From IMG/VR virus record IMGVR_UViG_2852079565_000004, positions 1 to 64,000 of that record: 64,000 nucleotides of DNA; one strand, given 5' to 3'. The notes beneath the pieces were generated by a model. It did not search any database, was not told the origin of the DNA, and saw only the letters and a program-made list of their open reading frames with translations. The translations under genes were made by a program, and so were the position numbers. This DNA comes from a virus (lineage: Duplodnaviria > Caudoviricetes). Shown here in pieces: positions 5,771 to 32,780 of the stretch (within the stretch, counting starts at the first letter, position 1; each line of letters starts with the position of its first letter).

Positions 5771-8700
5771 AAGAACCATCCTTGCTCCATAATATACACC
5801 CCTTTATATTTGAAGTAGTTACCTTTACTGTTTCGGATAACTGAGTAATCACCATCATTACTGTTTGTTTCAAATACACCGTTTTGCATATCGATACGCA
5901 TACCCGATTTACCCGGCACATAGTCAGGTGAGCGCATATCCGTTTGCACAACAATACTGCCTATCACCGCTTTATTGATAAACGCTTCATTAATAACAAC
6001 TTGCCCATTAACAACCATAAATGCGGGTTCCAACTTGCCGCTGGAGGGATTGAAAATACCAAATGTGTCAGCACTGAAACCAATTTGCGTCGTCACTTTT
6101 CCATTTTTGACAATAGCGCCAATCATCATTTGTGCTTCATAGTACTGACCATTGAGCATAACCGCTGATTTGATGCTAAATACCGATGATGCATTTCCCT
6201 TATGATCAACTGAGGTCTCCGCCCGTTTTTCAATTTCCGCTTTAGTGTCCTTAAGTTCGGAATGAATTAACTCATTAGCTGCCGCTTGAGCCTTTTCATT
6301 GTCTGAAATCGCTTTTTCAATACGAGTAAAGCGAGCATTGCTTTGTTCGTACTGTGCATTCAACTGGATAAATTTTTCAGCATGGGCTTTTTCATTGGTA
6401 GCAATCAGCTTATTAGTTTCAATGATGCTAGCCTTAATTACCCTTGCATCATTGCCTTGCTTCATATTTTGCACAGCAAGCTGTAAGAGCGTTTCCGCTT
6501 GGGAAGACTCTTTGTCTGTTTCTGTTTTCTGCATATGAGCAATATCAGCTTCATTCCCCTCAAAGCGACTACTTGTTTTCTCCTCGTTTTCTGCAATGGT
6601 TTTATTAGTGTCAGCTATCGCATTGGTGTTTTTAGTTACCGCTGAACTGACGTTAGAAAGATCTTTACCTTGCTTATCAATGACCTTTCCTTGCTCATCG
6701 ATTTGCTGACCTTTCTCATCAATGTTTTTCTGTAACTCCGCACGGGTTTGCTCGGTGTGCTGGGTTTGGGCCTTGTCTTTTTCAGCGATTGACTCTGTGA
6801 CGCGAACAAATGCCGCTTCCGTTTCTTCATTCAAAGCGGAAACTTTTTCGGATAACTTCGCTTGGGCTTTTTCCAGCGTGGCTGTTACATCTTCCGTACG
6901 CTCAACTTGCGCCTTGATTTTGCGATTATCGTTACGGACTTTACTTACTTCCGCTGTAGTTTGAGATGTCGACTCCGCTTGTGATAATGCTTGATCCGCT
7001 TGGGTTTTGCGTACCTGTGCAAAGTTAGCATGCATTTCTTCATAGATACTTTGCTGATTTTCTTTCGTTTCTGTTGTTGTTTCTTCCAAATTAGCAATAG
7101 CCGTTTTTTGAGAATCAACAACACTACTTACATCCGACAACTCGCGCCCTTGTTTATCAATATCCCCCTTCAGTTTGTCATCACCCGCTTTAATATCCGC
7201 AGTGAGCTGCTCTCGGGTTTGGGTGAGTGCCTTGTCTTGTTCAACCTGAACTTTCTTGATATCAGTGATATTTGCCGCAGTATCATCAATATGCGCTTTA
7301 AGTTGAACACCCGTTTCCGCTATCGCTTTGTCTGCCGTCGCTATCGCTTTTTCATTCCGTAAAATGCTGGCTTCAGAGGTTCGCAAGCGGTCAGTCATCT
7401 TGCTAAAGCTAGCAATGGTCTGCATTGCTGTTTCGGCTTGGGCGATTTCCTTGTTAGTGTTCGCAATTTCCATGCGAGTGATCGCGCCGTAAATATCGCC
7501 AAACTCTGCAATTGTGGTTTGCTTGAGCTCGGCCTGTGCTTTTTCCAGTGTCGCAGTGGTTTTCTCAACCGTTGTGATACGTCCTTTGGCTGCGTCAACT
7601 TCCGCTGTTACTTGGTTGATTTTCTCCGCAGTGGCTTCTTCAAGCGTGACTTGAGCATGTTCAACGCGAAGAATCGCAGAAGTGTTGTAATCCACTCTGG
7701 CACTGATTTGCTCTTGAAAACGCGCTGCTGCAGCATCTTGCTGTGCATTAACTTCTTCAAGTCGGAATATTTTCCCTTCGGTTCTGACTGTCTCGCGCTT
7801 GAATTCATAACTCAATTTCGTTGCATAAATTTGATTTTGCAATGCTGTTTCATTAACGATTGCTAAATCGGTATTAAGATTTAATACCTTGTTATCAAGT
7901 TCAATTGTCTTGCTATCAACATCAACGATGTCATGTTTGATATTGACTTGCTCTTCTTCAATATCCTCAATTCGAGACTCCATTCGCTGGCCAGCTTCAT
8001 TGCTGAGGAAGTTTTCACCCGCAACAGTCAGTATCCCTTCAACATCTGCCGAAGACTCACCTAACGCCAGCCCTGTCCATTCTGACTGGTTACCGCTTTT
8101 ATCTACCAACCTTGCACGAAAGTAGAAGCGCGTGCCCGCTTTAAGGCCAGACATGCGATAAGATTTAAGTGGGTATGGCACATCCGCCAGCAACTGCATA
8201 GAATCAGCTTTGTTTTCGAGGGAATACTGCAGCTCTGTTTTAAGAGAATCGCTGGTATTTACATCAAAGCCCCAGTCCAATGTAATGCCCCAAACCTCTG
8301 ATGTTGCACGCAAGTTAAGTGGCTTCGGTGGATTACCTTCTTTACCGTTGAGCTGAGTTTCTTCTGCACTGGCCCACACGCTGGAAATCTCAGACGCATT
8401 AATCGCCCGTACGCGAACTTGATAACGCCCAGCATAAATACCATTAACCTCAAAACCCAGCGTTGATGTACGCGGGGCATTTATCCAGTTACCGTTATCT
8501 CGACGCCATTCAGCTTCATACGCAATCGCACTTTCAGCAGCTTCCCAATCAACACGCAATGTGGTGAATGCAATACCTTGGTCTACTTGAGAATAGGAGG
8601 AAATACGCACGTTTTTAGGCGCTGGCTGCACATTTGGCGGAATAACCGTAATGGGCCGTTCATCAATACGCGCCCCTGAATCAATGTGATCATAATTGTC

Positions 8701-10482
8701 AGGGTTATGAATGGTACCGTTAATGGTGTAGGTATTATCAGCATTGTCACTGATATTAATGACCCGATACAATTGAACGGCTAAGTCGTCAGAATCCACG
8801 ACCCAGACGGCTTCTTTTTGCGGTACCTGCGAATATTCAACAGAAACCGTCACCACCTTTTTATTTACGGCTGTAACTGTTCGCCCCTCAGAGCCGCCAC
8901 TCGGTAAATTCACGATTAAGCGATCACCGGCTTTAATTGAGGTCGTTCTATCGAGGGTAATTTTACGACCCTCTACGGATGAAATGCGGCCCCCCGTATT
9001 GCGCCCCGCAAGGGATGAGTCAGCAACAGCAATAATATGACCAGGAGAAGGTATTGCGCCCTCTAACCCCGTTGCAAAGGAAATCATGCGGTCATTGGCA
9101 TTGGTTAATAATGCCCAGCGTCCACGGCGATTGGCTTCGCTTCGACGGGTACACCCAATAGCGGATAACTCCACCTTACGCACAGTCTTGTAACGTCGCT
9201 GAAGCTTTAAATCGACTACGGGCTCAATATCATCATTGCTGTGGTTATTAATATCCGTAAAAGAAACCAGTGCTTGTGTATAGCGGTTCTGAGTACTGCC
9301 ACCTGAATAAGAGGGTTTACCACCGACAATATTCGCATTGGTAAAAGTACGGAAAATACTGGCAGGCATATCAGCAACCGCTTTGACTTTATTGTCTGCC
9401 CAGAACGTCATACCACGGAAAATTGCGGCGATATCACGCAGGACGGTATAAGCCGACTCTTGCGATTGAATATACACATCACACAAGAAGCGGGGCTCTT
9501 TACCGTCACCACCATGTCCATCTGGGACTAATTCGTCACAATATTGTGCAATTTTATACAAATCCCATTTATCAATTTGTGACGCCTTGATACGGTCACC
9601 ACAGCCGTAACGGTTATTTAATACTAAGTCATAAAATACCCATGCTGGGTTATTCGTTGCGGCCAGTTTAAACGTTCCATCCCACCCCCCCGAATATGTT
9701 CGATTAATGGGGTCATAGTTTGCTGGTACCTTAATCAACAAGCCCCCTTTTGGGCGCACGCTGACTTTAGGGATGCGGTTATTAAATTGACGGGCATTAA
9801 AGGTAATAAATAACAGGGCTGTATTTGGGTACCGCAATTTGGCGTCAATTACTTCCGCAATCGCAGCAATATTAATCCGATCCGCAATGCGTGCATTATT
9901 CTGGTTTTTCGTTAAACGACGAACACGGACTTGCCAACCTGTAGAAGCTTTCGGTAAATCAATACGATGTGTTCTTGGGTACTCGCTGGTGGTCTTACCG
10001 TCAAAGGCAGATTTAACCACGTCCTTATAGCCAGCACCATCCGTGGAAAGCTCAATGACATAATCGACACGGTAACCTGTGGTGTCGCCGTTATCGTGCT
10101 GTTGGAGAAATTGAGGCGCAGACAAACGAATGCGGATCGCCGATAACTGGGTATTATTAACCGTTCTTACATATGGCTGATCGTCTTTTAACTCCATCCC
10201 CACCGCAATTTCATTATCAACGGAAGGGATGCCTTGAATATATTCCTGATGTTCACTACCAGAACGAAATTCCCACGTCACACCTTCAAAGTTTTTAGAA
10301 CCATCAGCATTACCGATTGGGGTATCATCAAGAAAAATACACGTATCATCTAACCCACCAGCAATTTCCCCTTCAGAAATAGCAAGCAGTAACTTTGCCG
10401 TTGATTCTGCTAATAGGCTGTCTTTTTGCTCTACGGGTGTCCGAGGTTTGGAACTCCCACCTTTCGCGCCTTGAATTCTCAT
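5767..10482 (-). CDS. Tail tip / host specificity protein J (central fibre), 1571 aa
   Basis: GAKGG N-terminus, NNPAW, FN3-like domains, long coiled coil, DUF1983-like C-terminus. Confidence 0.95.
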   Translation of the reverse strand: MRIQGAKGGSSKPRTPVEQKDSLLAESTAKLLLAISEGEIAGGLDDTCIFLDDTPIGNADGSKNFEGVTWEFRSGSEHQEYIQGIPSVDNEIAVGMELKDDQPYVRTVNNTQLSAIRIRLSAPQFLQQHDNGDTTGYRVDYVIELSTDGAGYKDVVKSAFDGKTTSEYPRTHRIDLPKASTGWQVRVRRLTKNQNNARIADRINIAAIAEVIDAKLRYPNTALLFITFNARQFNNRIPKVSVRPKGGLLIKVPANYDPINRTYSGGWDGTFKLAATNNPAWVFYDLVLNNRYGCGDRIKASQIDKWDLYKIAQYCDELVPDGHGGDGKEPRFLCDVYIQSQESAYTVLRDIAAIFRGMTFWADNKVKAVADMPASIFRTFTNANIVGGKPSYSGGSTQNRYTQALVSFTDINNHSNDDIEPVVDLKLQRRYKTVRKVELSAIGCTRRSEANRRGRWALLTNANDRMISFATGLEGAIPSPGHIIAVADSSLAGRNTGGRISSVEGRKITLDRTTSIKAGDRLIVNLPSGGSEGRTVTAVNKKVVTVSVEYSQVPQKEAVWVVDSDDLAVQLYRVINISDNADNTYTINGTIHNPDNYDHIDSGARIDERPITVIPPNVQPAPKNVRISSYSQVDQGIAFTTLRVDWEAAESAIAYEAEWRRDNGNWINAPRTSTLGFEVNGIYAGRYQVRVRAINASEISSVWASAEETQLNGKEGNPPKPLNLRATSEVWGITLDWGFDVNTSDSLKTELQYSLENKADSMQLLADVPYPLKSYRMSGLKAGTRFYFRARLVDKSGNQSEWTGLALGESSADVEGILTVAGENFLSNEAGQRMESRIEDIEEEQVNIKHDIVDVDSKTIELDNKVLNLNTDLAIVNETALQNQIYATKLSYEFKRETVRTEGKIFRLEEVNAQQDAAAARFQEQISARVDYNTSAILRVEHAQVTLEEATAEKINQVTAEVDAAKGRITTVEKTTATLEKAQAELKQTTIAEFGDIYGAITRMEIANTNKEIAQAETAMQTIASFSKMTDRLRTSEASILRNEKAIATADKAIAETGVQLKAHIDDTAANITDIKKVQVEQDKALTQTREQLTADIKAGDDKLKGDIDKQGRELSDVSSVVDSQKTAIANLEETTTETKENQQSIYEEMHANFAQVRKTQADQALSQAESTSQTTAEVSKVRNDNRKIKAQVERTEDVTATLEKAQAKLSEKVSALNEETEAAFVRVTESIAEKDKAQTQHTEQTRAELQKNIDEKGQQIDEQGKVIDKQGKDLSNVSSAVTKNTNAIADTNKTIAENEEKTSSRFEGNEADIAHMQKTETDKESSQAETLLQLAVQNMKQGNDARVIKASIIETNKLIATNEKAHAEKFIQLNAQYEQSNARFTRIEKAISDNEKAQAAANELIHSELKDTKAEIEKRAETSVDHKGNASSVFSIKSAVMLNGQYYEAQMMIGAIVKNGKVTTQIGFSADTFGIFNPSSGKLEPAFMVVNGQVVINEAFINKAVIGSIVVQTDMRSPDYVPGKSGMRIDMQNGVFETNSNDGDYSVIRNSKGNYFKYKGVYIMEQGWFL

Positions 10483-12967: not shown

Positions 12968-15900
12968 TTAATATCTGTTACCTGTAATGGCTTTGACTAT
13001 TTTATACAGATCGCCACCTTCCTGCCCTTCACTGACCAAAAGCTGCTTAATCTTATTTGTCAGGGATCTTTCAATAGAATTTAAGTCCATATTAGAAAAA
13101 GTATTTTGTTGCTGCTGCACTTGCCCCGCCTCAACATTAATACCGCCAAGATTAAGGTTTACATTAACGCCACCAGCGCCTTGCATTCCATACATACGCT
13201 GAACAGGCACATTCGCCATAGGATGATTGTTTCCAACGTATCCACCAGAAGCATAGCCCTTTTCAGCGCTTTTCATTAATGACATTAATGAGGTAATACC
13301 TAAACGACTTGTGGCTTCTTTTGTGAAAACAAACTCACCTTTATGGACAACGCCTGCAGGTTCGTACTTGTCACCTGCCCCCGTAAAACCACCACGCGCA
13401 AAGCCCGGCTTAATACCTAAGAAGTTACCAAAGCTAGTACCACCAAATGCTGCTGTCATCGCCTTTAGTGCTGCAGCCTTTATCAGCATATCGGTAACCA
13501 TCCGAGCAAACGAACGCCCAAAATCACCAAAATTAGCCTTGCCTGTCATAGCCCAATCCGTAAGAGAATTAGTCATTCCAACAAAAGCAAACTGCGAGGC
13601 TTGGGCGACTTTTCCATAAGTATTGGTTGCATCTTCTTCAAACTCCGCAAAGCCCTTTTTGATACCGTCACGCCAGTTTCCCCGAAGTTCATCTTCCTCA
13701 CGGTAAAACTCTTCTAACTTGGCTTTTTGCTCGGGTGAATCCGCCTTTTCTAATGCGATATTACGCTGGTATTGTCTATCGGTTAATCCTGCGCTACCGC
13801 GTAACGCTCGGATCCGGTCTTCAATTTCAGCAACACGCTTAGCTCTTTCCTCAAGCAGCTTGTTTTCGCGGTTTTGCTTTTCTAAAGCATCACCTTTAAC
13901 TGCTAGTTCACGCTGTCCAGATAAAATAGACTCGCGTCTCATTAGCAGTGATTTTTCATCAGCCGTTAATTGACGTTCACCATTTTTAACAATCCTATCC
14001 AAGATAGTGAATTGGGCCTCAGTAAGCATAAGTTGCTTTCGTTCATTACTCACAATGCGGTCACCTGTTTGTGAGAAATCACGAGCCACTTTTGTTTGCG
14101 CCTCGAGTGCTAAAAGCTGCTTTTGGAGATCTTCATCATGGCGGGTACCGTAATCAGGGCGGAAAGATGAGCCTTTAGGCGTTTTTTTGTCTTTATTTCG
14201 TTCCTGAATCCCCCTCCTAGCAGCCTCAATATCTTCTTGAGTAAAAAGAGACGCTCGACCTTCTTTAGCGTCGCGTTTATTTTCTAGGATTAGTCGATTA
14301 AGCTCTTTTTCTTCCTCATTGCGGCGCTGAGCAGCTGTTTGGCCTTGCCTAACTTTAGCGTTGAAAAGCTCTTGGTTCTTAATCGCCCTTTCTTCATCTT
14401 GTCGAGCCAATCGCTCACGCTCAACTTTTAGCCCATCTGCTGCCCACGCTTTGTCAATAAGTTCGTAGGCTTGTGTTTTGAGTTCAACTTCACGCTCAGC
14501 TTCCTTTAAACGCTCTGCATCTCTCCTTATGCTCGGATTATCTCCTTTGTATCCTTCGCTATAGCTTAAGTTTTGAGCTCGCCTTTTGTACTCTTTTTGC
14601 GCTTCCTGTAATTCAGTAAAAGCGGTCTGCCTTTCGAGTGCAAGACCCGGATTTCGTCCTACACCTAACATAGCATCCCAACCTTTAGTCGCGGCGTTCT
14701 CAATCCAATTCCACGCACGTTCTAAAGTACCAAGGTTATCCACAATAGACATTGAGCGCTGATTCATTGCCTCGGCATAGGCTTTCGTAGCTAGTTCAGC
14801 CGCTTTTTCAGTGCGGCCTTGCGCTTCTGCTGCCGCAATTTGCTCATATTGCTTAGCGGTTAAAAAATGCAACGAGTTATTTAACTCTGTTACCGCTTTA
14901 ACTGGATCATCTTTAAGACGTTTAAAGTGCTCAATCGTTTTATCAATATCCTGCCCGACTGCTTTTTCCATCTTCGCAGAAATATCAGCAACAATACCGA
15001 CTTGATTGCCTGAGAATGCACCAGAGCCAACCACTTTCGCTAATGCATCGGCCATACGATATTGCGTAATACCATTACCAGAAAGCTGTTTAGCCAATGA
15101 ATCAAGTTGCGAAGCGGTTTTTCCTGCATAACTCCCGGTCAAAATAAGCTGCTTATTGTACTCAGTGAATTCTTTCGAGCCTTTATAAGCTGCAATTGCT
15201 AATGAACCAGTCACTCCCACCAGCCCTAACATTGCAATACGCATTGGTGTAATTAATGACAATACCGCTTTAAATGAATTCCCAACACCACCAAAGGAGT
15301 CTTTAATCTGCCCGCCTTGCTGAACCATGACCAACCAAATAGGCATGCCGGAAGCTAATGACGTCACAATATCCGTCATTTGCATCGGTAATTGCCGCAT
15401 AGCATTACGATACTGCCCTAATGTAATAGCGCCATTGCGGTAGGCCTGATCTTGCTGTTTTAACTTCGCTAAATACGGTTCAGCCTGTTGACTCACACCT
15501 AATTGAGCCGCTTTCATTTGTAGCAATTCAGATTTTGTTTTACCTATTGCGTCCGCTTCATTTTTCAACGCTTGAATAAAGTTTTCTTTAGTTTGAACCT
15601 CCCTAGCTTCAGCCGCTGCGACCAGTTGTTGTTCTCTGGCTAGCTCTCTTGCGGCTTGCGCCGCTTGTTTTTGCTCGGAAGCCAGCCTTGCTGTGCGTTC
15701 TTCCTGCTTTTTCATCTGGGTGATGATGGGAGCTGCTTCTTTTGAAATCCCCATTTGAGCGGCTTTGTACGACAACATTTCAGTTTTACTAGCGCCATAC
15801 AGAAAAACTTGCTCATGCATTTTTCGTAGGAAAGAGTCCTTTAGTACAGAAAGCTCTTTTTCAGCAACAGATAATCCACTGGTACGATTAGTGATATCTT

Positions 15901-16477
15901 CAAGTAATGCCTGATACCGCTCGGTATCAATGTTGCCTTTTTGGTATACTTGGGTCAGATTTTCTCTTATTGCGGTCAGTTTTGCTGTAGAACCCGATAC
16001 TTTTTCAATGCTTTCAATTTGCCTCGCGAACGAATCAGCAACTTTTGTATTCCCGGTTTCGGTCTCTCTGACTGCTTTTTTAATCTGATTTTCCAGTATG
16101 GCAAAATGTACTCCGCTAATTCTTCCACTTTCATACTGGCTGTTCAGTCTTTTTAGGATCTCTGCAAATTGGTTACTTGCATCACCGGCTTTCTTTATAG
16201 ACTGAATCTGATCTCGCAGTGATGAGGCATTTTCCTTATACTTCGCATTCATAGCCTCAACAGCTACAGCAGTTTCCTTTTGCCTTTGGGTTAACTCGGA
16301 AATAGAACGGGCTGCCGCTTTATGTGCGGGTTCAGATTGTTTAAATGTACTATTTAACTCATCTATGGATTGGTCTGTTCTGCTGGCGGCTTGTTGTAAA
16401 TCATTTAGTGCTTTAGAGCCTTTTTCGAGCTCGCTAGTGCTGACCTTAAATGAAATACTGGCTATTTCTTGTGTCAT
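12968..16477 (-). CDS. Tape measure protein
   Basis: Long helical protein; QQGGQIKDSFGG and GGFTG..GKYEPAGVVHKGEFV; start reassigned to MTQEIA. Confidence 0.95.
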   Translation of the reverse strand: MTQEIASISFKVSTSELEKGSKALNDLQQAASRTDQSIDELNSTFKQSEPAHKAAARSISELTQRQKETAVAVEAMNAKYKENASSLRDQIQSIKKAGDASNQFAEILKRLNSQYESGRISGVHFAILENQIKKAVRETETGNTKVADSFARQIESIEKVSGSTAKLTAIRENLTQVYQKGNIDTERYQALLEDITNRTSGLSVAEKELSVLKDSFLRKMHEQVFLYGASKTEMLSYKAAQMGISKEAAPIITQMKKQEERTARLASEQKQAAQAARELAREQQLVAAAEAREVQTKENFIQALKNEADAIGKTKSELLQMKAAQLGVSQQAEPYLAKLKQQDQAYRNGAITLGQYRNAMRQLPMQMTDIVTSLASGMPIWLVMVQQGGQIKDSFGGVGNSFKAVLSLITPMRIAMLGLVGVTGSLAIAAYKGSKEFTEYNKQLILTGSYAGKTASQLDSLAKQLSGNGITQYRMADALAKVVGSGAFSGNQVGIVADISAKMEKAVGQDIDKTIEHFKRLKDDPVKAVTELNNSLHFLTAKQYEQIAAAEAQGRTEKAAELATKAYAEAMNQRSMSIVDNLGTLERAWNWIENAATKGWDAMLGVGRNPGLALERQTAFTELQEAQKEYKRRAQNLSYSEGYKGDNPSIRRDAERLKEAEREVELKTQAYELIDKAWAADGLKVERERLARQDEERAIKNQELFNAKVRQGQTAAQRRNEEEKELNRLILENKRDAKEGRASLFTQEDIEAARRGIQERNKDKKTPKGSSFRPDYGTRHDEDLQKQLLALEAQTKVARDFSQTGDRIVSNERKQLMLTEAQFTILDRIVKNGERQLTADEKSLLMRRESILSGQRELAVKGDALEKQNRENKLLEERAKRVAEIEDRIRALRGSAGLTDRQYQRNIALEKADSPEQKAKLEEFYREEDELRGNWRDGIKKGFAEFEEDATNTYGKVAQASQFAFVGMTNSLTDWAMTGKANFGDFGRSFARMVTDMLIKAAALKAMTAAFGGTSFGNFLGIKPGFARGGFTGAGDKYEPAGVVHKGEFVFTKEATSRLGITSLMSLMKSAEKGYASGGYVGNNHPMANVPVQRMYGMQGAGGVNVNLNLGGINVEAGQVQQQQNTFSNMDLNSIERSLTNKIKQLLVSEGQEGGDLYKIVKAITGNRY

Positions 16478-16537
16478 AACTTTCCTCGGGTACAAAAAAA
16501 CCACCCGAAGGTGGTTATATGTGACTGTGGATGATTG

Positions 16538-17103: not shown

Positions 17104-18369
17104 TTACTTTGCTTTTACTACTGGTAACTCATTGAAATTTGTTGTGTATGCTGGTGATAACATTTCTCGCTTCATCTGATATCCACGATCACCACCTTTC
17201 GCAGCAAACCAGACTTTGCCTAGGCCTCTATTGTTTATTGTGTCTAATGTTTTCATCAGTTCATCACTGTTTTTAAATGGCTTTTGAGTCGAAAACATAT
17301 CGAACTGAGTAATGTCTGAATCTGTGAAGTCAGACAACATTATCCCTGCTTTATAGTAGCGGTAACCATCTCGCCATATGGAATCTAATCCACGCATGGC
17401 AGCATTGATGATGTCCCGCGTGTCGCTGCTAGGGTATTCAAGCCTAATGCTGACGCTGTTGGCATAATCATCGCCTGATGCATGGCGACTTGTTTGTATG
17501 AATAGGCCAATGATTCGGCATCGCTGCTTTTCTTCGCGTAGCTTCTCCGCTGCACGCTCTGCGTAATCACAAACTGCCTTGCGCATAGTTTCAATATCTA
17601 AAACTTTCTTACCGAAAGAACGTGAGCATAGTATTTGCTGCTTAACCTTCCTGACTTCTTCAAGCTCAATGCAAGACTCGCCATTTAGTTCGCGGAGCGT
17701 CCTTTCTAGCGTTACGCCAAAGGTTTTACGTATTGTGGCCACTGGCGCATCGGCTAAGTCTAAAGCAGTATAGATACCCATAACTCTTAACTTAGCTGAG
17801 ATTCTACGACCAATGCCCCACACTTCCTCAATCGGAATAAGTGACAGCAACTTTTTTTGCCGATTTCTATCAGATAGCTCGACCACACCGCCAGTTTTCT
17901 TCCACGTTTTAGATGCGTGATTAGCAATCTTAGCCAGAGTTTTAGTTGGGCCTATTCCAACGCCCACTGGCAAATGTGTTCGCTGCAATATTGTTGATTG
18001 AATCTCTCGCCCGTATTCTTCTAGATTAAATGTATGAGCCATACCAGTGAAATCAAGGAACGCCTCATCTACCGAATATATCTCCAAGCGTGGAGCATAC
18101 ATTGATAACAGCGACATCACTCTATTGCTCATGTCAGCATATAACGCATAGTTAGAACTAAATATGTTGATGTTATTTTGTCGGTAATAACTTCTTCGCT
18201 CATAGTAAAGCTCACCCATTTTTACACCGAGTTTTTTTGCTTCCGCTGACCGGGCAATCACGCAACCATCATTGTTACTCAGGACGATTACTGGCTTTCC
18301 CGCTAAGTCTGGCCTAAATACTTTCTCGCAGCTCGCATAAAACGAATTAACATCAACAAGCGCGAACAT
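17104..18369 (-). CDS. umuC: DNA polymerase V subunit UmuC
   Basis: MFALVDVNSFYASCE, SNNDGC, YSVDEAF, LSPAYTT. Confidence 0.97.
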   Translation of the reverse strand: MFALVDVNSFYASCEKVFRPDLAGKPVIVLSNNDGCVIARSAEAKKLGVKMGELYYERRSYYRQNNINIFSSNYALYADMSNRVMSLLSMYAPRLEIYSVDEAFLDFTGMAHTFNLEEYGREIQSTILQRTHLPVGVGIGPTKTLAKIANHASKTWKKTGGVVELSDRNRQKKLLSLIPIEEVWGIGRRISAKLRVMGIYTALDLADAPVATIRKTFGVTLERTLRELNGESCIELEEVRKVKQQILCSRSFGKKVLDIETMRKAVCDYAERAAEKLREEKQRCRIIGLFIQTSRHASGDDYANSVSIRLEYPSSDTRDIINAAMRGLDSIWRDGYRYYKAGIMLSDFTDSDITQFDMFSTQKPFKNSDELMKTLDTINNRGLGKVWFAAKGGDRGYQMKREMLSPAYTTNFNELPVVKAK

Positions 18370-18782
18370 TATTGCGCCTTATGGATGATGAACGTTACGA
18401 CACCAAATATCTGTAAGTCCTGTGTGTCACCTATGTGTATAGGTTGAAAGTCAGGGTTCATAGGCATTAACATAGGTGGATGAGACTTCAGTCTCTTTAC
18501 TGTGAATTCACCATCAACGCTAGCGATAACAATATCCCCATCCTTTGCAACAAGCGCGCTATCAACAATAACAACGTCACCATCATTGATATTCGCATCA
18601 ATCATCGAATTACCTTCGACACGCAACATGTACGTACTGTCAGGGTGCTTAATCAGCGTACTGTTAAGGTTTATCCTCTCTTCCATATAGTCAGCCGCAG
18701 GTGATGGAAATCCCGCAGGCACACGGTCTAGGAAAAGTGGAATATTGATAATTGACTCGGAATCGATAAGTTCTAGCTTCAT
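18369..18782 (-). CDS. umuD: DNA polymerase V subunit UmuD
   Basis: AGFPSPA cleavage site, GNSM Ser, TVKRL Lys. Confidence 0.97.
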   Translation of the reverse strand: MKLELIDSESIINIPLFLDRVPAGFPSPAADYMEERINLNSTLIKHPDSTYMLRVEGNSMIDANINDGDVVIVDSALVAKDGDIVIASVDGEFTVKRLKSHPPMLMPMNPDFQPIHIGDTQDLQIFGVVTFIIHKAQ

Positions 18783-26032: not shown

Positions 26033-27399
26033 GTTTCACCTACCATCGTGGGCTGCTGGGTATTCAGTTCATCCACCACCACTTCAATATCATCTGCAGG
26101 GTCGATAACATCGTATTTTTGCAAACTACGGACTAAGTCAGACTTACGTATTGCGCTGGATTGCCATGCTGAAACTATTTCGCGGATCATCGCACTGTCT
26201 GCGATGTGGTTAACGAGGTCTTTGTTAATCTCAAACGAAATGTCTGCAGTATCTAAACCTAAGTATTCAGCACACCACATTAGCGCTTTACTAAATGCAT
26301 CGGAAACGTTTGAACAGCAAATACTCAAAATGGAAGTTTGGGCATTCTGTTCACCAACAGACTGAATAACCGTTTTGACCTTACTATCCGCAGAAACCAA
26401 TTGAGCACCCAGCGCAACCATATAATCACGCTTACTGTCCATCGCCTCTTTAGCCAACATGTTAGGTTGTGCTTGAGCGTAACCAAAAAAGCCGTCTTTA
26501 GGCAGCATAACAGGTGAACGAGAACCGACCACGACCCCTGTTTTCTCTAAATGATCCCGCCACGTGGTATCTAACCCACCAAGGTATGGCTGAACTTGGC
26601 CACAAAAGAAAACAGAGTCCTCATAATCGGCCGAATTTCGATAATGCCCTAGGTTAATCTTTGCCAGCCCCAATAAGGGAGCCTCATCTATCGTGTGGTC
26701 ATTATTCTGCGCCCCAATAAACGTAAACGGGATTTCATCCCATGCGCCATTGCCTGCGCGCTCAGGCATGTACTCAGAATCGATTTGAAATACGCTTTGC
26801 CCTGCTGCCTTACGATAAACACGGCAAATGAAATGACCGTCTTCAATGGCTAATACACGGTATTGAATCGCATCCTTAAAGCCAAATCCGTCCTCTTCTT
26901 CTACCGTTTCACGCAATACCACCAGCGTTAACATCGTGCGCCCATTAATACGCGCTGTACGCCAGTTAATGATGTCTTCAGCACGATATTGGAATATGTA
27001 CGGGAGTTTCGAATCGCTGTTGTAATCAACGTACAGACCATGCCGACCGACTTCTAATACTGACTCAAGTGAAGACTGAGCCAATTGATAGATACTTGAA
27101 CCCGCCCCGTCAGCATCGTCTTTTAAACACGACAGCTTTTCGATAACGGCAACCAAGGGGTCTTTTTTAAACGCCATGCCTATCATACCGTTTCGAGTAT
27201 TGCCCGTTATGGGGTAAAACACGGCCCTGTCTTGATAGTCTTTGTTACGTTTCTTTTTACGGGCATCATCCTGCTCGACAAGTTCTGGCAAATAAGTGTT
27301 TATATCCTCGCCACCTCGACATACATCACGGACTAACTTCCATTGAGGCGCAGCCGCTTTGTATTCAGGGCGAGTAAAATCAACGTTGTTTGTACTCAT
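26029..27399 (-). CDS. Portal protein (DUF4055-like)
   Basis: Follows terminase; IINW, IPFTF, N.GHY..SAD. Confidence 0.88.
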   Translation of the reverse strand: MSTNNVDFTRPEYKAAAPQWKLVRDVCRGGEDINTYLPELVEQDDARKKKRNKDYQDRAVFYPITGNTRNGMIGMAFKKDPLVAVIEKLSCLKDDADGAGSSIYQLAQSSLESVLEVGRHGLYVDYNSDSKLPYIFQYRAEDIINWRTARINGRTMLTLVVLRETVEEEDGFGFKDAIQYRVLAIEDGHFICRVYRKAAGQSVFQIDSEYMPERAGNGAWDEIPFTFIGAQNNDHTIDEAPLLGLAKINLGHYRNSADYEDSVFFCGQVQPYLGGLDTTWRDHLEKTGVVVGSRSPVMLPKDGFFGYAQAQPNMLAKEAMDSKRDYMVALGAQLVSADSKVKTVIQSVGEQNAQTSILSICCSNVSDAFSKALMWCAEYLGLDTADISFEINKDLVNHIADSAMIREIVSAWQSSAIRKSDLVRSLQKYDVIDPADDIEVVVDELNTQQPTMVGET

Positions 27400-28973
27400 T
27401 AGAAGGTTGTTCCTAAATTAATGCCAAAGGCTGGACGACTCGGTTTATGGAGAACACGATAGCGTGTACTATCCCAGTCATGATCTTCTTGCTCGGTATC
27501 TACATCATCAGGGTTTTTAGAGTCTCGAACTAAAACAGGAACTCGACTGATCCAGCCTCGGCAATAGTCAAAGACATAAAATGCCGCTTTTTCTGGTATG
27601 CCTGACTCTGTTTTCTTACCTTCAATCACCGCCTCGAGCATATCGGCAAAAAGTGATGCTCCGTTAATACGGGAACCAGGGTTTTTATTCGCTTTCATCC
27701 ATTCGACACCTTGAGCCTCCATTTTTTGTGCAATGGAGTCCTCGTCATCGTTAGGAGTATAGATAGAATTATCTGCAGGACCTTTAATCACCTTTTTACA
27801 GATATTGGGCATAATATTCATTTGCCCCTGTGTAATACCGTCTTGAACTATTTCGCTAGGGATAACGCTATCTAAGCCAGCTAAGCGCTCATCAATCCAC
27901 TTAATGCCTTTGGCAACATTGGTTGATGACATATTCAGCCCCTTGTTGAGCTCATCAGGCGGGCACCCATACCACTCACCAATCAAAATTAACGTCCCTG
28001 CTGGTGGGCAAAACTTACGACCATCGGGTAAGGTGGCTTCGGTACCATCCGATTGCGCCCACCATAAGTTAGAAAATGGCTTTGACTCCCCCCAGTCATG
28101 GGAGCGGTCAACAATCCAACTGTCGGGGATCTGAAACGGCTTAATCACATGATGTGTTGCATTCCAAAGATGGTCAAAACGACCCCCGCTCGTCACATCC
28201 CATGAACCTTCCACCCACGCCTTTTTGCGGTTTGGATCTTTAATGCTCATGAGCGTTGCGATGTATTGGGGATCTAAGTACGGGTTTTCTTTAAATGAAC
28301 CGTGGATAGCAACGCGAGTTAATGTGATTTCTTCATCACGCTCAGTTTGGGGGTTAAACACTTTTTGTGTTTCCCGAATAACGGTTCCTCGTGGCTTTGG
28401 TTCGATAAAACGCTTTTTCACCCATGTATGACCAATACCAAACGGGTTGGTCGTACTGAAAACCTCAAGCGGAATAGGCTTTAGTAATGTGCCATTTTCA
28501 AGGGGGTAATCTTTTGGCCTAAACGATGAACGTCGACAAGAGAACATTGCCTCATAGAAATCAGCCGACTTTTGCTTGGTTAATTCGTTAAAGCCAATAA
28601 AGGGGAACTCTTGCCCATGATAATCCCAATAATCATCCGCTTCTTTACCAAAACGAAATAGTAGCTCTTCACCTGTTGGCCATACCCACCTCAATTCTGA
28701 GGCTGAAGCAAGAAAGCGAGCGCCATCTTTAAACAACCGATACATACGCTTTGATTGCGTGATGATGTCGGCAAGGTTTTTGTACTCCGTATCAAATATG
28801 ATACCGCGCCAAAATGAGCCATAGCCAATACCCACATTACGCCTAAAACGGGCAAGTTGTGCCGCTGTTTTACCAGGACCTCGCGTGCCTTCATACAGTA
28901 TTTCATTGCATGGGCAACTTAAGGATAACGACTGCGAACCAGGCAAAGGCTTCCAAACTACGTTGTAATTCAT
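27399..28973 (-). CDS. Terminase large subunit
   Basis: GTRGPGKT Walker A, FNEL, TTNP, DWG, EDHDWD. Confidence 0.93.
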   Translation of the reverse strand: MNYNVVWKPLPGSQSLSLSCPCNEILYEGTRGPGKTAAQLARFRRNVGIGYGSFWRGIIFDTEYKNLADIITQSKRMYRLFKDGARFLASASELRWVWPTGEELLFRFGKEADDYWDYHGQEFPFIGFNELTKQKSADFYEAMFSCRRSSFRPKDYPLENGTLLKPIPLEVFSTTNPFGIGHTWVKKRFIEPKPRGTVIRETQKVFNPQTERDEEITLTRVAIHGSFKENPYLDPQYIATLMSIKDPNRKKAWVEGSWDVTSGGRFDHLWNATHHVIKPFQIPDSWIVDRSHDWGESKPFSNLWWAQSDGTEATLPDGRKFCPPAGTLILIGEWYGCPPDELNKGLNMSSTNVAKGIKWIDERLAGLDSVIPSEIVQDGITQGQMNIMPNICKKVIKGPADNSIYTPNDDEDSIAQKMEAQGVEWMKANKNPGSRINGASLFADMLEAVIEGKKTESGIPEKAAFYVFDYCRGWISRVPVLVRDSKNPDDVDTEQEDHDWDSTRYRVLHKPSRPAFGINLGTTF

Positions 28974-29464
28974 TCACCTAATACCCCGCCCTGTTGCTGT
29001 TGTGCGACTTTCTCCCAATCATCCACGCTGTCACAAGCAGGAACAGGCATAATGTTGTGCGTCGTCTCAACTTTCTGCTCTACCTTGTGTCTGTTGGTAT
29101 AAACATCCCCACACTCTTTTGCAGCTTGCTCAGCTAATTGTGCAGTTAACGCAAAATTACGCATGCTCTCAGCTTTAACCGCCATTCGGTCTAACATTCT
29201 CAAACGGTAGGCTTTATTCGCTATGGGGATGTCTGTTATTTCGGTTTGGAATCGTTCGCGGGTTTCATTAAAAAGCTCTACCCACTTTTTCGCTAATTTA
29301 CGCCCACTTGACTTTGTTGGGTCATGAGATTCAACTTGCTGGCGGCTCACTTTTAACCCAAATTCATTTTTGACGGACTCAACCACTTGAGAGGGGGTAT
29401 CATAGCAGGCAAGGGATTGAATAATATAAATTTTAACCTCTGATTTTAACGCTGCCATAATCAA
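28970..29464 (-). CDS. Terminase small subunit (DUF2280-like)
   Basis: QSLAC.DTPSQV, DPTK, IANKAYRL, EQAAKE. Confidence 0.85.
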   Translation of the reverse strand: MIMAALKSEVKIYIIQSLACYDTPSQVVESVKNEFGLKVSRQQVESHDPTKSSGRKLAKKWVELFNETRERFQTEITDIPIANKAYRLRMLDRMAVKAESMRNFALTAQLAEQAAKECGDVYTNRHKVEQKVETTHNIMPVPACDSVDDWEKVAQQQQGGVLGE

Positions 29465-30244: not shown

Positions 30245-30832
30245 TTATAAATCAAGTTGTTCTTTACGTTGAACCTCAGCGCGAACTTGCTCAATAGCAT
30301 TCGCACTCGCTATCTCTGAGTTGGCTTGCGTATGCTGAATGGCTGTAATTGAAGAATGCAAATAATTAAACTTATCTTCAATCAGTTGCTGAAGCTTTTC
30401 GTATTCTGACTGCTCACGAGAAATAACTTCACTTGTTCGGCTAATTTCAGCGGAAGATTTAAGGAACATCTCAGCAGATACTTGCTCACGGTTATCATTA
30501 ACGCCTGTGGTTATTTCAAACCGCGCTTGCTCTGCGCCCTTTTTAGTTTGTTCTTCTGCTGGCTGCAGTACTATTTTCTCTATAGTGCCATTCTCAATAA
30601 ACACATCATTAATGAACACTCTGCCAGAAGAAACTGTAAACACAGGTTCTAAACACCCTTTAGGGTTGAATATACCAAAATCAGTTATGAAGCCACCTTT
30701 AGCTGGCTGTTTTAATCCAGTGCTAACCATTAGCCCTTCAATGCGCTTTAGCTGCGCTTCCAGCTTATCTAAGTCAGTGCTATCGATTGATATCTTTATA
30801 GATAGAGTGGCTATTTCTTTTTTATCTGACAT
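30245..30832 (-). CDS. Late protein with segments homologous to tail protein J (DUF1983-like)
   Basis: Two segments align by eye to J of the same phage (see findings). Confidence 0.75.
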   Translation of the reverse strand: MSDKKEIATLSIKISIDSTDLDKLEAQLKRIEGLMVSTGLKQPAKGGFITDFGIFNPKGCLEPVFTVSSGRVFINDVFIENGTIEKIVLQPAEEQTKKGAEQARFEITTGVNDNREQVSAEMFLKSSAEISRTSEVISREQSEYEKLQQLIEDKFNYLHSSITAIQHTQANSEIASANAIEQVRAEVQRKEQLDL

Positions 30833-30862
30833 GACTGTCTCCATAAATGAAGAGGCCCCTAA

Positions 30863-31036
30863 CTAATTAGAGGCCTTTTGAAGAATATCTTCGGCTATGT
30901 TTGTGAATGCGACTATGCCAGCTTCATAATCTGAGCTAATAACTTCCCTGAGCTTCTTTTCAGCAGCATCAACTCTATCTCTATACCCAGGCACTGCATC
31001 AACTAACCGATTAAGTTCAACCATTTGGTTATCCAT
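30863..31036 (-). CDS. Hypothetical protein (57 aa), below the ORF-track cutoff
   Basis: MDNQMVELNRL...ILQKASN; TAATG coupling to the Rz stop. Confidence 0.6.
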   Translation of the reverse strand: MDNQMVELNRLVDAVPGYRDRVDAAEKKLREVISSDYEAGIVAFTNIAEDILQKASN

Positions 31037-31506
31037 TAGCGTTTACACTCCGCAAAGTACCAATCTCTCAAACCAAGGAATTGCTTTTCGAGTGTTTCAA
31101 GCTGTTTAAGGAGATCGAAATAATCTTGTTCAGCGTCTCTCGCCAAGGTGGCGGATCTGCTAGCATCCACGCTGGAGGTGGAACTGTTTTCGGGCTTTGG
31201 ACATTCGGCTTTGATCCGCAGGCGCTTAGTGCCATTGCTAACATCAATACGCAACTGGTCAATTTCAGCTTTTGCATTTGTGAGTTCCGTTGTGTGTTTG
31301 GTGTCGAGTTCGTGAAGGGAGTTAATGCGCTTTTCGTAGTCTTCATTAATAGCAACCTGCTCATTGAAATCACTATTTAACTTAGAGAAACTATTTTCTA
31401 ACTTAGTGTGTTTATCATTCAACTTGTCAAAGTCATCAGCAACCCACCAGAGCCAAAATAGCAAAATGGCACAAGCGGCCATTAATGCTTTAGTTAGCGA
31501 ACCCAT
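31036..31506 (-). CDS. i-spanin (Rz-like)
   Basis: N-terminal TM, coiled coil, LD.KHT.EL..AK, RLRIKA.C. Confidence 0.9.
   Translation of the reverse strand: MGSLTKALMAACAILLFWLWWVADDFDKLNDKHTKLENSFSKLNSDFNEQVAINEDYEKRINSLHELDTKHTTELTNAKAEIDQLRIDVSNGTKRLRIKAECPKPENSSTSSVDASRSATLARDAEQDYFDLLKQLETLEKQFLGLRDWYFAECKR
31068..31277 (-). CDS. o-spanin (Rz1-like), nested lipoprotein
   Basis: LSAC lipobox and Pro-rich PPPAWML in an alternative frame within Rz. Confidence 0.85.
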   Translation of the reverse strand: MQKLKLTSCVLMLAMALSACGSKPNVQSPKTVPPPAWMLADPPPWRETLNKIISISLNSLKHSKSNSLV

Positions 31507-31507
31507 A

Positions 31508-32002
31508 TCACGACTCTTTCACTGATAAAGCCGCTTCACCAATTGGCAGAGGTCGGTTATCAACTTCCACACCTTTAGGCCATCTATAGCCAACAACTCT
31601 GGCCAGCGGGAATGATTTGATATTAACCGCATCCGATTGATTGCCGCCTAAAATAAGCAACTTACCGTCCGCGGTTTTCCCTACACAAAAACCAACGTGC
31701 CCACCGCCAGCTCTATCAAAAATTACCACGCAACCATAGTGAGGCTCTTTTAATGCAATACCCCAATCTAAATATGATTTTGCCGCTTCAGGGACTTTGC
31801 TAACCGAGCGACTACCGATAATTCCAACCCGTTCAAGCATCGCGCCAACATAGCCCGCACACCAAGATGTTTTGTCCTCCTTGATACCCGACCATTTCAT
31901 ATCTTTCCAATATTGAACAATTTTAGGATTGCTGTTCGGGCTGGGGAATCGGGTCACTCCAATTTCTTTTCTGGCTTCAATTAGCCACTTAGGTTCTGTC
32001 AT
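31508..32002 (-). CDS. Endolysin, TIGR02594 / NlpC-P60-like
   Basis: WCAGYV, GGGHVGF, LGGNQSDAV; located between holin and spanins. Confidence 0.85.
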   Translation of the reverse strand: MTEPKWLIEARKEIGVTRFPSPNSNPKIVQYWKDMKWSGIKEDKTSWCAGYVGAMLERVGIIGSRSVSKVPEAAKSYLDWGIALKEPHYGCVVIFDRAGGGHVGFCVGKTADGKLLILGGNQSDAVNIKSFPLARVVGYRWPKGVEVDNRPLPIGEAALSVKES

Positions 32003-32367
32003 TTCTTCACCATAAAAGTAAAAGGCTGCTTAATTAGCAGCCAGATTGATTTGATTCGGGACATTAACTTACTAATGACAACAATTGACATGATGTTGCC
32101 ACCAGCGGAAAAGACAACGAGGAAAAAGACACCATCAAATACAACATCAGATGGTGCTGACACTCGTTCACCACCTAATGTTTCCCATATCTGGTAAACC
32201 CAACAAATAATTAAAATAGTGCCTACGACAGAATCTCTTCGCTTCTCATAACGACAAAGAAATACAGTCGCGGCTGAAACAAGCATGAATGAAATATCAG
32301 CAGCATCCAGCGGGTGAACCTCCACCCAGCTTGTTAAATCCGTGAAGATAGTTAAGAAGGCTTCCAT
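31999..32367 (-). CDS. Membrane protein in lysis cassette
   Basis: Several hydrophobic segments; coupled to holin and endolysin. Confidence 0.6.
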   Translation of the reverse strand: MEAFLTIFTDLTSWVEVHPLDAADISFMLVSAATVFLCRYEKRRDSVVGTILIICWVYQIWETLGGERVSAPSDVVFDGVFFLVVFSAGGNIMSIVVISKLMSRIKSIWLLIKQPFTFMVKK

Positions 32368-32780
32368 TAGTTACCCCCTTTATTTCGCCAATCTTTAATG
32401 GCCTGTACGATACTGCTGAAGTTTCGGTCTATTGATGCTGCAATACGACTAAACAACTTTCTAAGATTGTCTTTGTTTGCAGCAAGCACCAAAACGGGGA
32501 TTAACAAAGCCGAAATAATAACTGCCATTATTCTAGGGCTAATATCCCAGCTCCATATCTGTGAGATAACATCAGAAGCTTCTTTAGCAATGAGGATCCC
32601 CACACCAAGAGCTAAAATAAAATGAAGTATCTTTCGTCGGTTGTTATCTTTAGATGCAATGACGGAAACTGAAGCGCCAATAACTGCCCCTAGCACAACA
32701 CCATAGTCGGCACCAATAAGGAAGCCGCCCATCGCGCCACCGCCAGCAGCACCGAGGGTTATCCCTATTGATGTGCTCAT
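32367..32780 (-). CDS. Putative holin
   Basis: Multiple TM segments, basic C-terminus, first gene of lysis cassette. Confidence 0.72.
   Translation of the reverse strand: MSTSIGITLGAAGGGAMGGFLIGADYGVVLGAVIGASVSVIASKDNNRRKILHFILALGVGILIAKEASDVISQIWSWDISPRIMAVIISALLIPVLVLAANKDNLRKLFSRIAASIDRNFSSIVQAIKDWRNKGGN

What the first reader, a model, noticed from the sequence alone, without database searches (positions are those of the whole stretch)
30245..30832. Mosaic tail-mimic protein: candidate decoy or tail-assembly counter-defence
Seen, by-eye alignment within this window: FGIFNP-KGCLEPVFTVSSGRVFINDVFIENGTIEKIVLQ matches the J C-terminus FGIFNPSSGKLEPAFMVVNGQVVINEAFINKAVIGSIVVQ (22/40). NYLHSSITAIQHTQANSEIASANAIEQVRAEV matches the J stalk DYNTSAILRVEHAQVTLEEATAEKINQVTAEV (14/32), in reversed order relative to J. 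The N-terminus EIATLSIKIS..TDLDK weakly resembles the tape-measure start EIASISFKVS.SELEK. The gene lies between lysis and terminase, about 20 kb from J, and is transcribed before it. Inference: a non-structural string of tail epitopes that titrates immune proteins sensing or blocking tail parts (cf. Tai and Tab tail-assembly inhibition), or a dominant-negative poison of rival phage tails. Best candidate for an undescribed system here.
Basis: partly seen in the sequence, partly recalled or inferred. Interest (0 to 1): 0.8.

Follow-up and report, generated by a model that had tools for sequence, protein, structure and literature searches.

The report
Small mosaic tail-fibre-like prophage protein
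A 195-residue late gene of a Providencia prophage really is built from pieces that resemble the phage's own central tail fibre, joined to an almost invariant family-specific N-terminus, but its function is untested and the proposed decoy role is only one of several possibilities.

Summary
The ORF (30245-30832, minus strand) is a real, conserved gene.

**Similarity to the central fibre J (significant):**
- Tip segment: BLASTP E 6e-11; shuffle z 18; profile-profile probability 99.3%.
- Stalk coiled coil: E 5e-6; z 7.7.

**Similarity to the tape measure:** chance in pairwise terms. At profile level, the first ~17 residues match a generic tape-measure N-terminal motif.

**Family and context:**
- The family is small: 32 clusters among 1.8 billion representatives. 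It is confined to Providencia, with rare Moellerella and Proteus members, and has no named function.
- Residues 1-43 are nearly invariant under strong purifying selection. The rest is a hypervariable mosaic.
- The gene always lies between the lysis cassette and terS, behind a conserved terminator-like hairpin. This holds whatever terminase, tape-measure or neck module the prophage carries.
- Every copy-bearing record complete enough to check carries a J with the tip domain.

**What did not fit:**
- The J-like part does not co-vary with the cognate J.
- No homology to Tai or Ati, and no TaiEcA homologue in four Providencia genomes.

**Best reading (about 0.3):** a late, non-essential accessory protein. 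J-derived modules would act as an interchangeable oligomerising scaffold for the invariant N-terminus, which acts in trans on tail assembly or its inhibitors.

A minor virion part or a J-assembly helper remain live rivals.

The parts
30245..30832 (-). Coding sequence of the small protein (195 aa plus stop). An in-frame ATG at 30844 would add 4 residues.
   Evidence: ORF list and translation. 160 homologues, most starting at the same Met. dN/dS below 1 along the whole gene.
30704..30832 (-). Nearly invariant N-terminal module (aa 1-43): predicted strand, then helix 18-37. The first ~17 residues resemble the generic tape-measure N-terminal motif.
   Evidence: Pairwise identity 0.81-0.96 across 65 family members. 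dN/dS 0.01-0.27 with dS up to 0.69. AF2 helix 18-37. Profile match to tape-measure N-termini. No longer protein carries this module.
30563..30694 (-). J-tip-like segment (aa 47-90), homologous to part of the PF09327 tail-tip domain.
   Evidence: Pfam PF09327 scored 20.8 bits, just under the 22-bit cut-off.
30272..30463 (-). J-stalk-like coiled-coil segment (aa 124-187). Contains two units fitting the small-x-small/hydrophobic pattern described for fold-switching central-fibre coiled coils.
   Evidence: AF2 long helix 116-193 with pLDDT above 88 in 141-190. Pattern taken from PMC12874032.
30853..30876 (-). Terminator-like hairpin followed by a U-rich run, about 20 nt upstream of the ribosome-binding site.
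   Evidence: Scan. The same position in relatives holds three different hairpin sequences, each followed by a T run. Folding energies -14.5 to -17.7 kcal/mol.
30838..30842 (-). Ribosome-binding site GGAGA.
   Evidence: Sequence. Conserved in all 20 loci aligned.
5944..6141 (-). Region of J (aa 1448-1513, tip domain) that matches the small protein.
   Evidence: PF09327 covers J 1417-1547.
7597..7788 (-). Region of the J stalk (aa 899-962) that matches the small protein's C-terminal helix.
16427..16477 (-). Tape-measure N-terminus (from the internal ATG), carrying the generic strand motif that the small protein's N-terminus resembles.

Best explanation
I read it as a late-expressed, non-essential accessory protein of Providencia lambdoid prophages, not a core virion part.

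The functional end would be the invariant 43-residue N-terminal strand-helix module, which resembles the N-terminal end of tape-measure proteins. The J-derived beta segment and coiled coil would serve mainly as an interchangeable oligomerising (probably trimerising) scaffold. That would explain why they can be swapped, shortened and diverge freely.

Made with the late genes, the protein would act in trans during tail assembly. It would engage a partner that is constant across these phages: a Providencia host or defence factor, or the shared J tip cassette. That makes it a soluble mimic or competitor of the ends of the axial tail proteins, in the genomic hotspot where tail-assembly immunity and counter-immunity genes lie in other lambdoid phages.

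Shown here: the homologies, the mosaic structure, the selection pattern, the late-operon context and the narrow distribution.

Inferred: oligomerisation, the identity of the partner, and any decoy or counter-defence effect.
For: - Real homology to the J tip and stalk.
- N-terminus at 0.81-0.96 pairwise identity with dN/dS 0.01-0.27 despite dS up to 0.69. The rest is at 0.16-0.50 identity with dN/dS 0.2-0.75.
- The N-terminal profile picks out tape-measure N-termini.
- In phage 80alpha, that part of the tape measure is a strand plus helix that docks on the tail completion protein (PMC11661146).
- Fixed position after the lysis cassette and before terS, with at least three terminase types, at least five tape-measure types and unrelated neck genes. 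A variable virion partner is therefore unlikely.
- A conserved terminator-like hairpin lies directly upstream and no promoter-like site was seen there, which fits late-only expression.
- Natural truncated forms of 71-115 aa exist. One, of 98 aa, is in the isolated phage PSTCR8lys.
- Two of four J-bearing prophage regions in one genome have no copy.
- Tai and Ati genes lie 'before terS', and Tai escape mutations map to the J C-terminal region (PMC11364771).
Against: - There is no functional or expression data of any kind.
- No homology to Tai, Ati or any PADLOC model.
- No adjacent divergent defence gene.
- Known anti-Tai and anti-Tab proteins bind the defence protein and are not described as mimics of the target.
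- A decoy for sensors of the J tip should track the conserved J tip. The J-like part is instead the most variable region.
- The tape-measure resemblance is about 16 residues, with hhalign probability only 78%.
- The AF2 monomer model is poor (mean pLDDT 66.6).
- The oligomeric state could not be tested.
Confidence: 0.3

Rival explanations
1. It is a minor virion component. One version is a short trimeric fibre or whisker whose constant N-terminus anchors it to the particle. Another is a small protein loaded into the tail lumen or neck through its tape-measure-like N-terminus.
For: - A constant N-terminus with a variable fibre-like remainder is the usual layout of phage fibres.
- It contains J-type beta segment and coiled coil.
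- It is a late-operon gene.
- The tape-measure N-terminal strand-helix is a docking element in the 80alpha neck.
- Every copy-bearing record complete enough to check has a J with the tip domain.
Against: - It lies 20 kb from the tail genes, in an accessory hotspot.
- There is no globular distal domain: the C-terminal ends look like arbitrarily cut stalk repeats.
- Truncated forms occur in a viable phage.
- The anchor is invariant although the tape measure, neck and terminase modules differ.
Confidence: 0.25
2. It is an assembly helper for the central fibre. It would transiently pair with the J distal region and help it reach or keep the metastable coiled-coil state described for central fibres of F-type pyocins and related phages.
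For: - The homologous pieces correspond to the segment just after the coiled coil and to one stalk repeat unit.
- The F7 pyocin work shows that this coiled coil is metastable and needs stabilising partners (PMC12874032).
- J is reported as insoluble when expressed alone.
Against: - There is no co-variation with the cognate J.
- J-bearing prophages exist without the gene.
- Fibre chaperones are normally encoded next to their fibre.
- The conserved part is the N-terminus, not the J-like parts.
Confidence: 0.12
3. It is an interference protein aimed at rival phages. A J-fragment would co-assemble with and poison the central fibres of co-infecting or superinfecting siphophages.
For: - The J-like core, by my count on about 40 residues, is closer to the J tips of other Providencia prophages (about 68%) than to its own (22/40).
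- Tail-assembly interference is an established prophage strategy (PMC11364771, PMC10884400).
- The region is hypervariable.
Against: - It sits behind a terminator in the late operon with no promoter of its own, so it is probably silent in the lysogen.
- J tips in these prophages are mostly of one type, so the phage's own J would also be exposed.
Confidence: 0.1
4. It is a by-product of recombination. A chimeric ORF, created by illegitimate exchange between tail genes, would persist at a module junction without a function of its own.
For: - Degraded prophages show small-gene::J and tube::J-tip fusions.
- Segments of the gene have different dS values, which indicates mosaic histories.
- Lengths and ends are highly variable.
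Against: - The N-terminal module is under strong purifying selection across deep synonymous divergence.
- The ORF is intact in about 160 variants.
- The ribosome-binding site and upstream hairpin are conserved.
Confidence: 0.08

Closest known systems
C-terminal tip domain of the central tail fibre / tip attachment protein J (Pfam PF09327, formerly DUF1983)
   Same: Residues 47-90 are homologous to the middle of this domain (profile positions about 66-94). Some family members pass the Pfam threshold and are auto-named 'phage tail tip fiber protein'.
   Different: It holds only about a third of the domain. It lacks the hub, FN3 and distal parts of J. It is 195 aa rather than about 1500. It is encoded 20 kb away, and its J-like pieces are in reversed order behind a family-specific N-terminus.
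AtiEcA (phi80 orf64), the anti-Tai counter-defence, and its partner TaiEcA (orf63)
   Same: It is a small gene in the late operon, between the lysis genes and the packaging module. The system it might relate to acts on the J C-terminal region (PMC11364771).
   Different: No sequence similarity to either protein. No divergent tai-like neighbour. No TaiEcA homologue in four Providencia genomes. Ati is 76 aa and is not reported to resemble J.
phi80 orf66 / N15 gp59-like protein
   Same: A 242-aa protein of unknown function, encoded just before cos, that also carries a short PF09327 fragment (23.4 bits). Its individual deletion was not among those reported to lower phi80 titre.
   Different: No detectable relationship to this family beyond a 21-column motif. 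Its N-terminal domain is different and widespread.
Tape-measure protein N-terminal strand-helix (as modelled in the phage 80alpha neck)
   Same: A short N-terminal strand motif followed by a helix. The profile-level resemblance extends to several tape-measure types.
   Different: Only about 16 residues match. There is no TMP_2 or other tape-measure domain. The small protein's N-terminus is invariant, whereas the tape-measure N-termini of the same prophages differ.
PHROG phrog_31985 (unknown function)
   Same: Full-length match, E 2.7e-18.
   Different: The family has no annotation, so membership adds no functional information.

Membership tests
Pfam PF09327 Phage_Tail_Tip | Score at or above the curated gathering threshold (22 bits) | tested here: not met
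   20.8 bits over aa 62-90. Six relatives carry the domain, and the profile-level homology is clear. The protein therefore holds a fragment of the domain, not the whole domain.
Central tail fibre / tip attachment protein J | N-terminal hub and FN3 domains (PF24801, PF13550) | tested here: not met
   These are present in the window's J and absent from the small protein.
Tai (tail assembly inhibition) proteins | Sequence homology to TaiEcA | tested here: not met
   No BLASTP alignment at E <= 100.
Tai (tail assembly inhibition) proteins | Divergent orientation with its own expression in the lysogen | tested here: not met
   Same strand as the late genes, behind a terminator-like hairpin, with no promoter-like site upstream. 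Expression itself was not measured.
Ati (anti-Tai) proteins | Sequence homology to AtiEcA | tested here: not met
   No alignment.
Ati (anti-Tai) proteins | Late-operon gene before the packaging module | tested here: met
Ati (anti-Tai) proteins | Adjacent cognate tai gene | tested here: not met
   No credible opposite-strand ORF between Rz and terS. No TaiEcA homologue in the record or in four Providencia genomes, with that single query.
Tab / anti-Tab | Location between terS and terL | tested here: not met
   The gene lies upstream of terS. Feature taken from PMC10884400.
Tape-measure protein | TMP_2 or Tape_meas_lam_C domains and a length of several hundred residues | tested here: not met
   Only the N-terminal motif is shared.
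Tail-fibre assembly chaperone | Encoded immediately downstream of its fibre gene and co-varying with it | tested here: not met
   Encoded 20 kb upstream of J, with no co-variation.
phrog_31985 | Full-length HMM match | tested here: met
   E 2.7e-18, aa 5-193 on profile positions 1-180 of 186.
Virion structural protein | Presence in purified particles | not testable with these tools
   No proteomic data were found for Providencia temperate phages.

The most novel reading that the evidence does not exclude
The protein would be a new type of stand-alone counter-defence, or a regulator of tail completion. It would be a soluble mini-trimer that shows the cell a consensus copy of the tape-measure N-terminal end, held on interchangeable central-fibre modules. 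It would thereby block a conserved Providencia factor that inhibits or senses tail assembly, with no cognate defence gene encoded beside it.
Probability: 0.12. Interest if true: 0.8.

Novelty: new variant of a known kind. Interest (0 to 1): 0.5.

Why it matters
Tail-assembly interference (Tai, Tab) and its counter-measures were described only in 2024. Their genes cluster just upstream of the packaging genes.

A rapidly diversifying protein at that spot, built from pieces of the target of Tai (the J distal end) and headed by an invariant tape-measure-like N-terminus, is an obvious candidate player in that conflict or in the control of central-fibre assembly.

Even if it turns out to be a minor virion part, the family is a clean natural example of domain shuffling between distant tail genes. 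It also shows that such internal homology can delete a prophage's whole structural module: one degraded prophage carries exactly that fusion.

The family is narrow (Providencia and close kin) and entirely unstudied. A few simple experiments would settle the matter.

Tried and rejected
- **Earlier findings of the scan:** nothing relevant.
- **Longer proteins with the N-terminal module:** none found.
- **NCBIfam and PADLOC:** no meaningful hits.
- **Solved structures by sequence for the small protein:** nothing. The J tip has solved relatives.
- **ESM Atlas on the N-terminus:** only unnamed clusters. Tape-measure clusters scored 0.79-0.81, below the level of a usable lead.
- **N-terminus as the upstream strands of the J tip domain:** rejected. 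The profile alignment starts at residue 47, and the N-terminus against J tips gives nothing.
- **N-terminus co-varying with the tape measure or the neck protein:** rejected. Those modules differ among prophages that share the same N-terminus.
- **The small gene as a silent donor cassette for J:** unlikely. It has its own start, ribosome-binding site and selected N-terminus, and is only 46% identical to J.
- **phi80 orf66 as a family member:** rejected.
- **The 57-aa ORF upstream as a conserved partner:** rejected, since it is absent from relatives.
- **Antisense 119-aa ORF 30507-30866:** treated as spurious.
- **Fold search on the monomer model:** not run, because the model is of low confidence.
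- **SeAvs18 as a sensor of the tape-measure N-terminus:** rejected. It recognises a central segment of the tape measure.

Full report
**What is there.** The finding is an ORF on the minus strand, 30245-30844 (199 aa). The likely start is the ATG at 30832, which has GGAGA five bases upstream, giving 195 aa. This is the start used by nearly all database relatives.

The window is a Providencia provirus. The gene lies in a minus-strand late operon in this order:
- holin (32367-32780)
- a second small membrane protein (31999-32367)
- CHAP endolysin (31508-32002)
- Rz, with an embedded Rz1 (31036-31506)
- a 57-aa ORF (30863-31036)
- this gene
- a PF18894 phage metallopeptidase (29489-30118)
- terS (28970-29464) and terL (27399-28973)
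- head and tail genes
- the tape measure (12968-16504)
- the 1571-aa central fibre J (5767-10482)

**The three similarities.**

*J tip.* BLASTP aligns small-protein residues 28-94 with J 1448-1513: 32/69 identities, E 6e-11. None of 1000 shuffles reached the score, z 18. Comparing a 65-member family alignment with 13 J tips by hhalign gives probability 99.3%, E 7e-21, over residues 47-90. Pfam places this inside PF09327, at 20.8 bits against a cut-off of 22.

*J stalk.* Residues 128-191 align with J 899-962: 20/64 identities, E 5e-6. Shuffle z is 7.7. The signal vanishes if the stalk is removed from J, and it is absent against the coiled-coil-rich tape measure. It is therefore not a composition artefact.

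*Tape-measure N-terminus.* This is not significant pairwise: E 1.0, with 135/1000 shuffles reaching the score. A profile built from the family's N-terminus tells a different story.
- It ranks tape-measure N-termini of four distinct types at the top of 544 unrelated ORFs from these prophages.
- It aligns with a ten-sequence tape-measure N-terminal alignment at score 26.3, against 8.8 +/- 1.9 (max 14.3) for column-shuffled controls.

The match is about 16 residues, a hydrophobic/polar alternating strand right after the initiator Met. I take it as a real but short resemblance to a generic motif, not to this phage's tape measure in particular.

The N-terminus is not the upstream part of the J tip domain.

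**The family.** A word-indexed search found 160 relatives, all from Providencia. They are named 'hypothetical protein' or, automatically, 'phage tail tip fiber protein'. An exhaustive HMMER pass over 1.84 billion representatives found only 32 clusters. Apart from two J proteins and two J-like fragments, all are small proteins that begin with the same N-terminus. Named members are Providencia, with single Moellerella and Proteus records. No longer protein carries the N-terminal module. PHROG 31985, of unknown function, matches full length.

**Two-part evolutionary pattern.**
- Residues 1-40 have pairwise identity of 0.81-0.96 across 65 diverse members. Beyond residue 50, identity is 0.16-0.50.
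- Among four alignable relatives, the N-terminal 43 codons have dN/dS of 0.01-0.27 with dS up to 0.69. The conservation is therefore at the protein level and not due to recent DNA identity.
- The middle and C-terminal parts have dN/dS of 0.2-0.75. Their dS values differ from the N-terminus in the same pair, as expected for a mosaic.
- The variable part comes in several J-tip-like types, several coiled-coil lengths (family lengths 71-280 aa) and several unrelated C-terminal endings that look like stalk repeats cut at arbitrary points.

**Context in relatives.** In 19 loci the gene always follows a lysis cassette (two cassette types), sometimes after one or two unrelated small ORFs. It always precedes the packaging genes. 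These are of at least three kinds: lambda-like, HNH plus HK97-like, and the window's DUF2280 type. The 57-aa ORF upstream is not conserved.

The conserved unit starts with a hairpin followed by a T run, about 20 nt before the ribosome-binding site. Three different hairpin sequences occupy this position in different prophages, with folding energies of -14.5 to -17.7 kcal/mol. The consensus scan calls the window's copy terminator-like and finds no promoter-like site between it and the start.

From the logic of lambdoid late operons I infer that the gene is read only by antiterminated late transcription. This is inference. Expression data could not be obtained.

**Relation to the rest of the virion.** Prophages carrying the same N-terminus have at least five tape-measure N-terminal types. 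The window's tape-measure N-terminus was found in only three of the twelve genomes and records searched. The gene at the tail-completion position was found in only two of twelve.

What all copy-bearing records that are complete enough share is a J with the tip domain. The J tip region is more conserved than the rest of J: 61-74% against 30-39% in four prophages.

The J-like segment of the small protein does not track the cognate J. Prophages with near-identical J tips carry quite different small-protein types. By my count on the printed cores, the window's copy is somewhat closer to the J tips of other prophages (about 68% over 40 residues) than to its own (22/40).

In one Providencia genome, two of four J-bearing prophage regions have no copy. 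The isolated phage PSTCR8lys carries a 98-aa version that lacks the coiled coil.

One degraded prophage has the small gene fused in frame to the middle of J, with everything between deleted. Another carries a tube::J-tip fusion. The internal homology is therefore recombinogenic.

**Structure.** An AlphaFold2 monomer built with the family alignment is of low overall confidence (mean pLDDT 66.6). It gives helix 18-37, weak strands at 53-74 and a confident long helix at 116-193. This is as expected for a protein that folds only as an oligomer.

The C-terminal helix contains two units, 15 residues apart, that fit the small-x-small / hydrophobic pattern reported for central-fibre coiled coils that switch to a beta-prism (PMC12874032). 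Two units are not more than chance would allow, so this is descriptive only.

**Comparison with known systems.**

*Tai and Ati.* Tai proteins of lambdoid prophages and satellites block tail assembly. Escape mutations map to the C-terminal region of J. Most tai genes lie 'before terS'. In phi80, the anti-Tai gene is a small late-operon gene at that spot, next to a divergent tai (PMC11364771). The present gene shares the location and orientation of ati. It has no similarity to TaiEcA or AtiEcA and no divergent neighbour. No TaiEcA homologue was found in four Providencia genomes with that query.

*Tab and anti-Tab.* These lie between terS and terL, and Tab targets the tape-measure C-terminus (PMC10884400). 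That does not fit here.

*phi80 orf66.* This protein, encoded just before cos, unexpectedly carries a PF09327 fragment but is otherwise unrelated. It is a positional analogue at best.

*80alpha neck.* The first 37 tape-measure residues form a strand and a helix that dock on the tail completion protein (PMC11661146). That shows what an N-terminal module of this shape can do.

**Interpretation.** The selected part of the protein is the N-terminus. The J-derived parts behave like replaceable scaffold. The partner of an invariant module is unlikely to be one of the variable virion modules.

Together with the accessory-hotspot position, the natural truncations and the presence/absence polymorphism, this favours a trans-acting, late, non-essential accessory protein. 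I put it at about 0.3 in the specific form given, and at perhaps 0.55 for 'not a stoichiometric virion part' in general. It would engage a host or defence factor, or the shared J tip.

A minor virion protein (0.25), a J assembly helper (0.12), an anti-rival interference protein (0.1) and a functionless recombination product (0.08) remain possible.

The J-like part does not track J, and the strongest constraint lies elsewhere.

**Verdict.** The mosaic is real and the family is uncharacterised. The decoy function is untested. Interest is moderate: it is a well-defined candidate for simple experiments, not a demonstrated new system.

Noticed in passing
window 17104-18782 (minus strand): [quoted passage not shown] This looks like a translesion-synthesis moron in an unusual place.
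   Followed up: no
L024 / L010 (same prophage remnant; small-gene start at L024:3013): The small gene is fused in frame to the FN3-to-stalk junction of J. The rest of J follows as separate 243-aa and 162-aa ORFs, and the whole packaging/head/tail module is missing. This looks like a deletion by recombination between the small gene and J.
   Followed up: partly
L040 (261-aa ORF, about 2.6 kb downstream of another small-gene copy): An ORF joins, by my reading of its sequence (no family scan run), a tail-tube-like N-terminal part directly to a complete J tip domain. It is a second deletion chimera in a degraded prophage.
   Followed up: no
L052:4353-5081 (phage phi80 orf66, just before cosQ): This 242-aa protein of unknown function passes the Pfam threshold for a short PF09327 tail-tip fragment (23.4 bits, aa 119-151). 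Its N-terminal 80 residues recur in many unrelated phages. Small proteins with J-tip fragments before the packaging genes may be more widespread than this one family.
   Followed up: partly
window 30863-31036 (minus strand): A 57-aa ORF lies between Rz and the small gene. It has no family match and is not found at this position in relatives.
   Followed up: partly
L019, about 650-1180 nt upstream of the small gene: A 176-aa ORF lies between the lysis genes and the hairpin. By my reading of its N-terminus it has a lipoprotein signal (hydrophobic stretch ending in Cys). It looks like a bor-like moron slot immediately upstream of the conserved hairpin.
   Followed up: no
window 5767-10482 (J): J has an unusually long repetitive stalk (about aa 800-1420), which I read as coiled coil, ahead of the tip domain. 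It has solved relatives only for the last 200 residues: a J-like gp24, a putative tail fibre and the F2 pyocin fibre. This makes it a candidate for the coiled-coil to beta-prism switch described for F-type pyocins.
   Followed up: no
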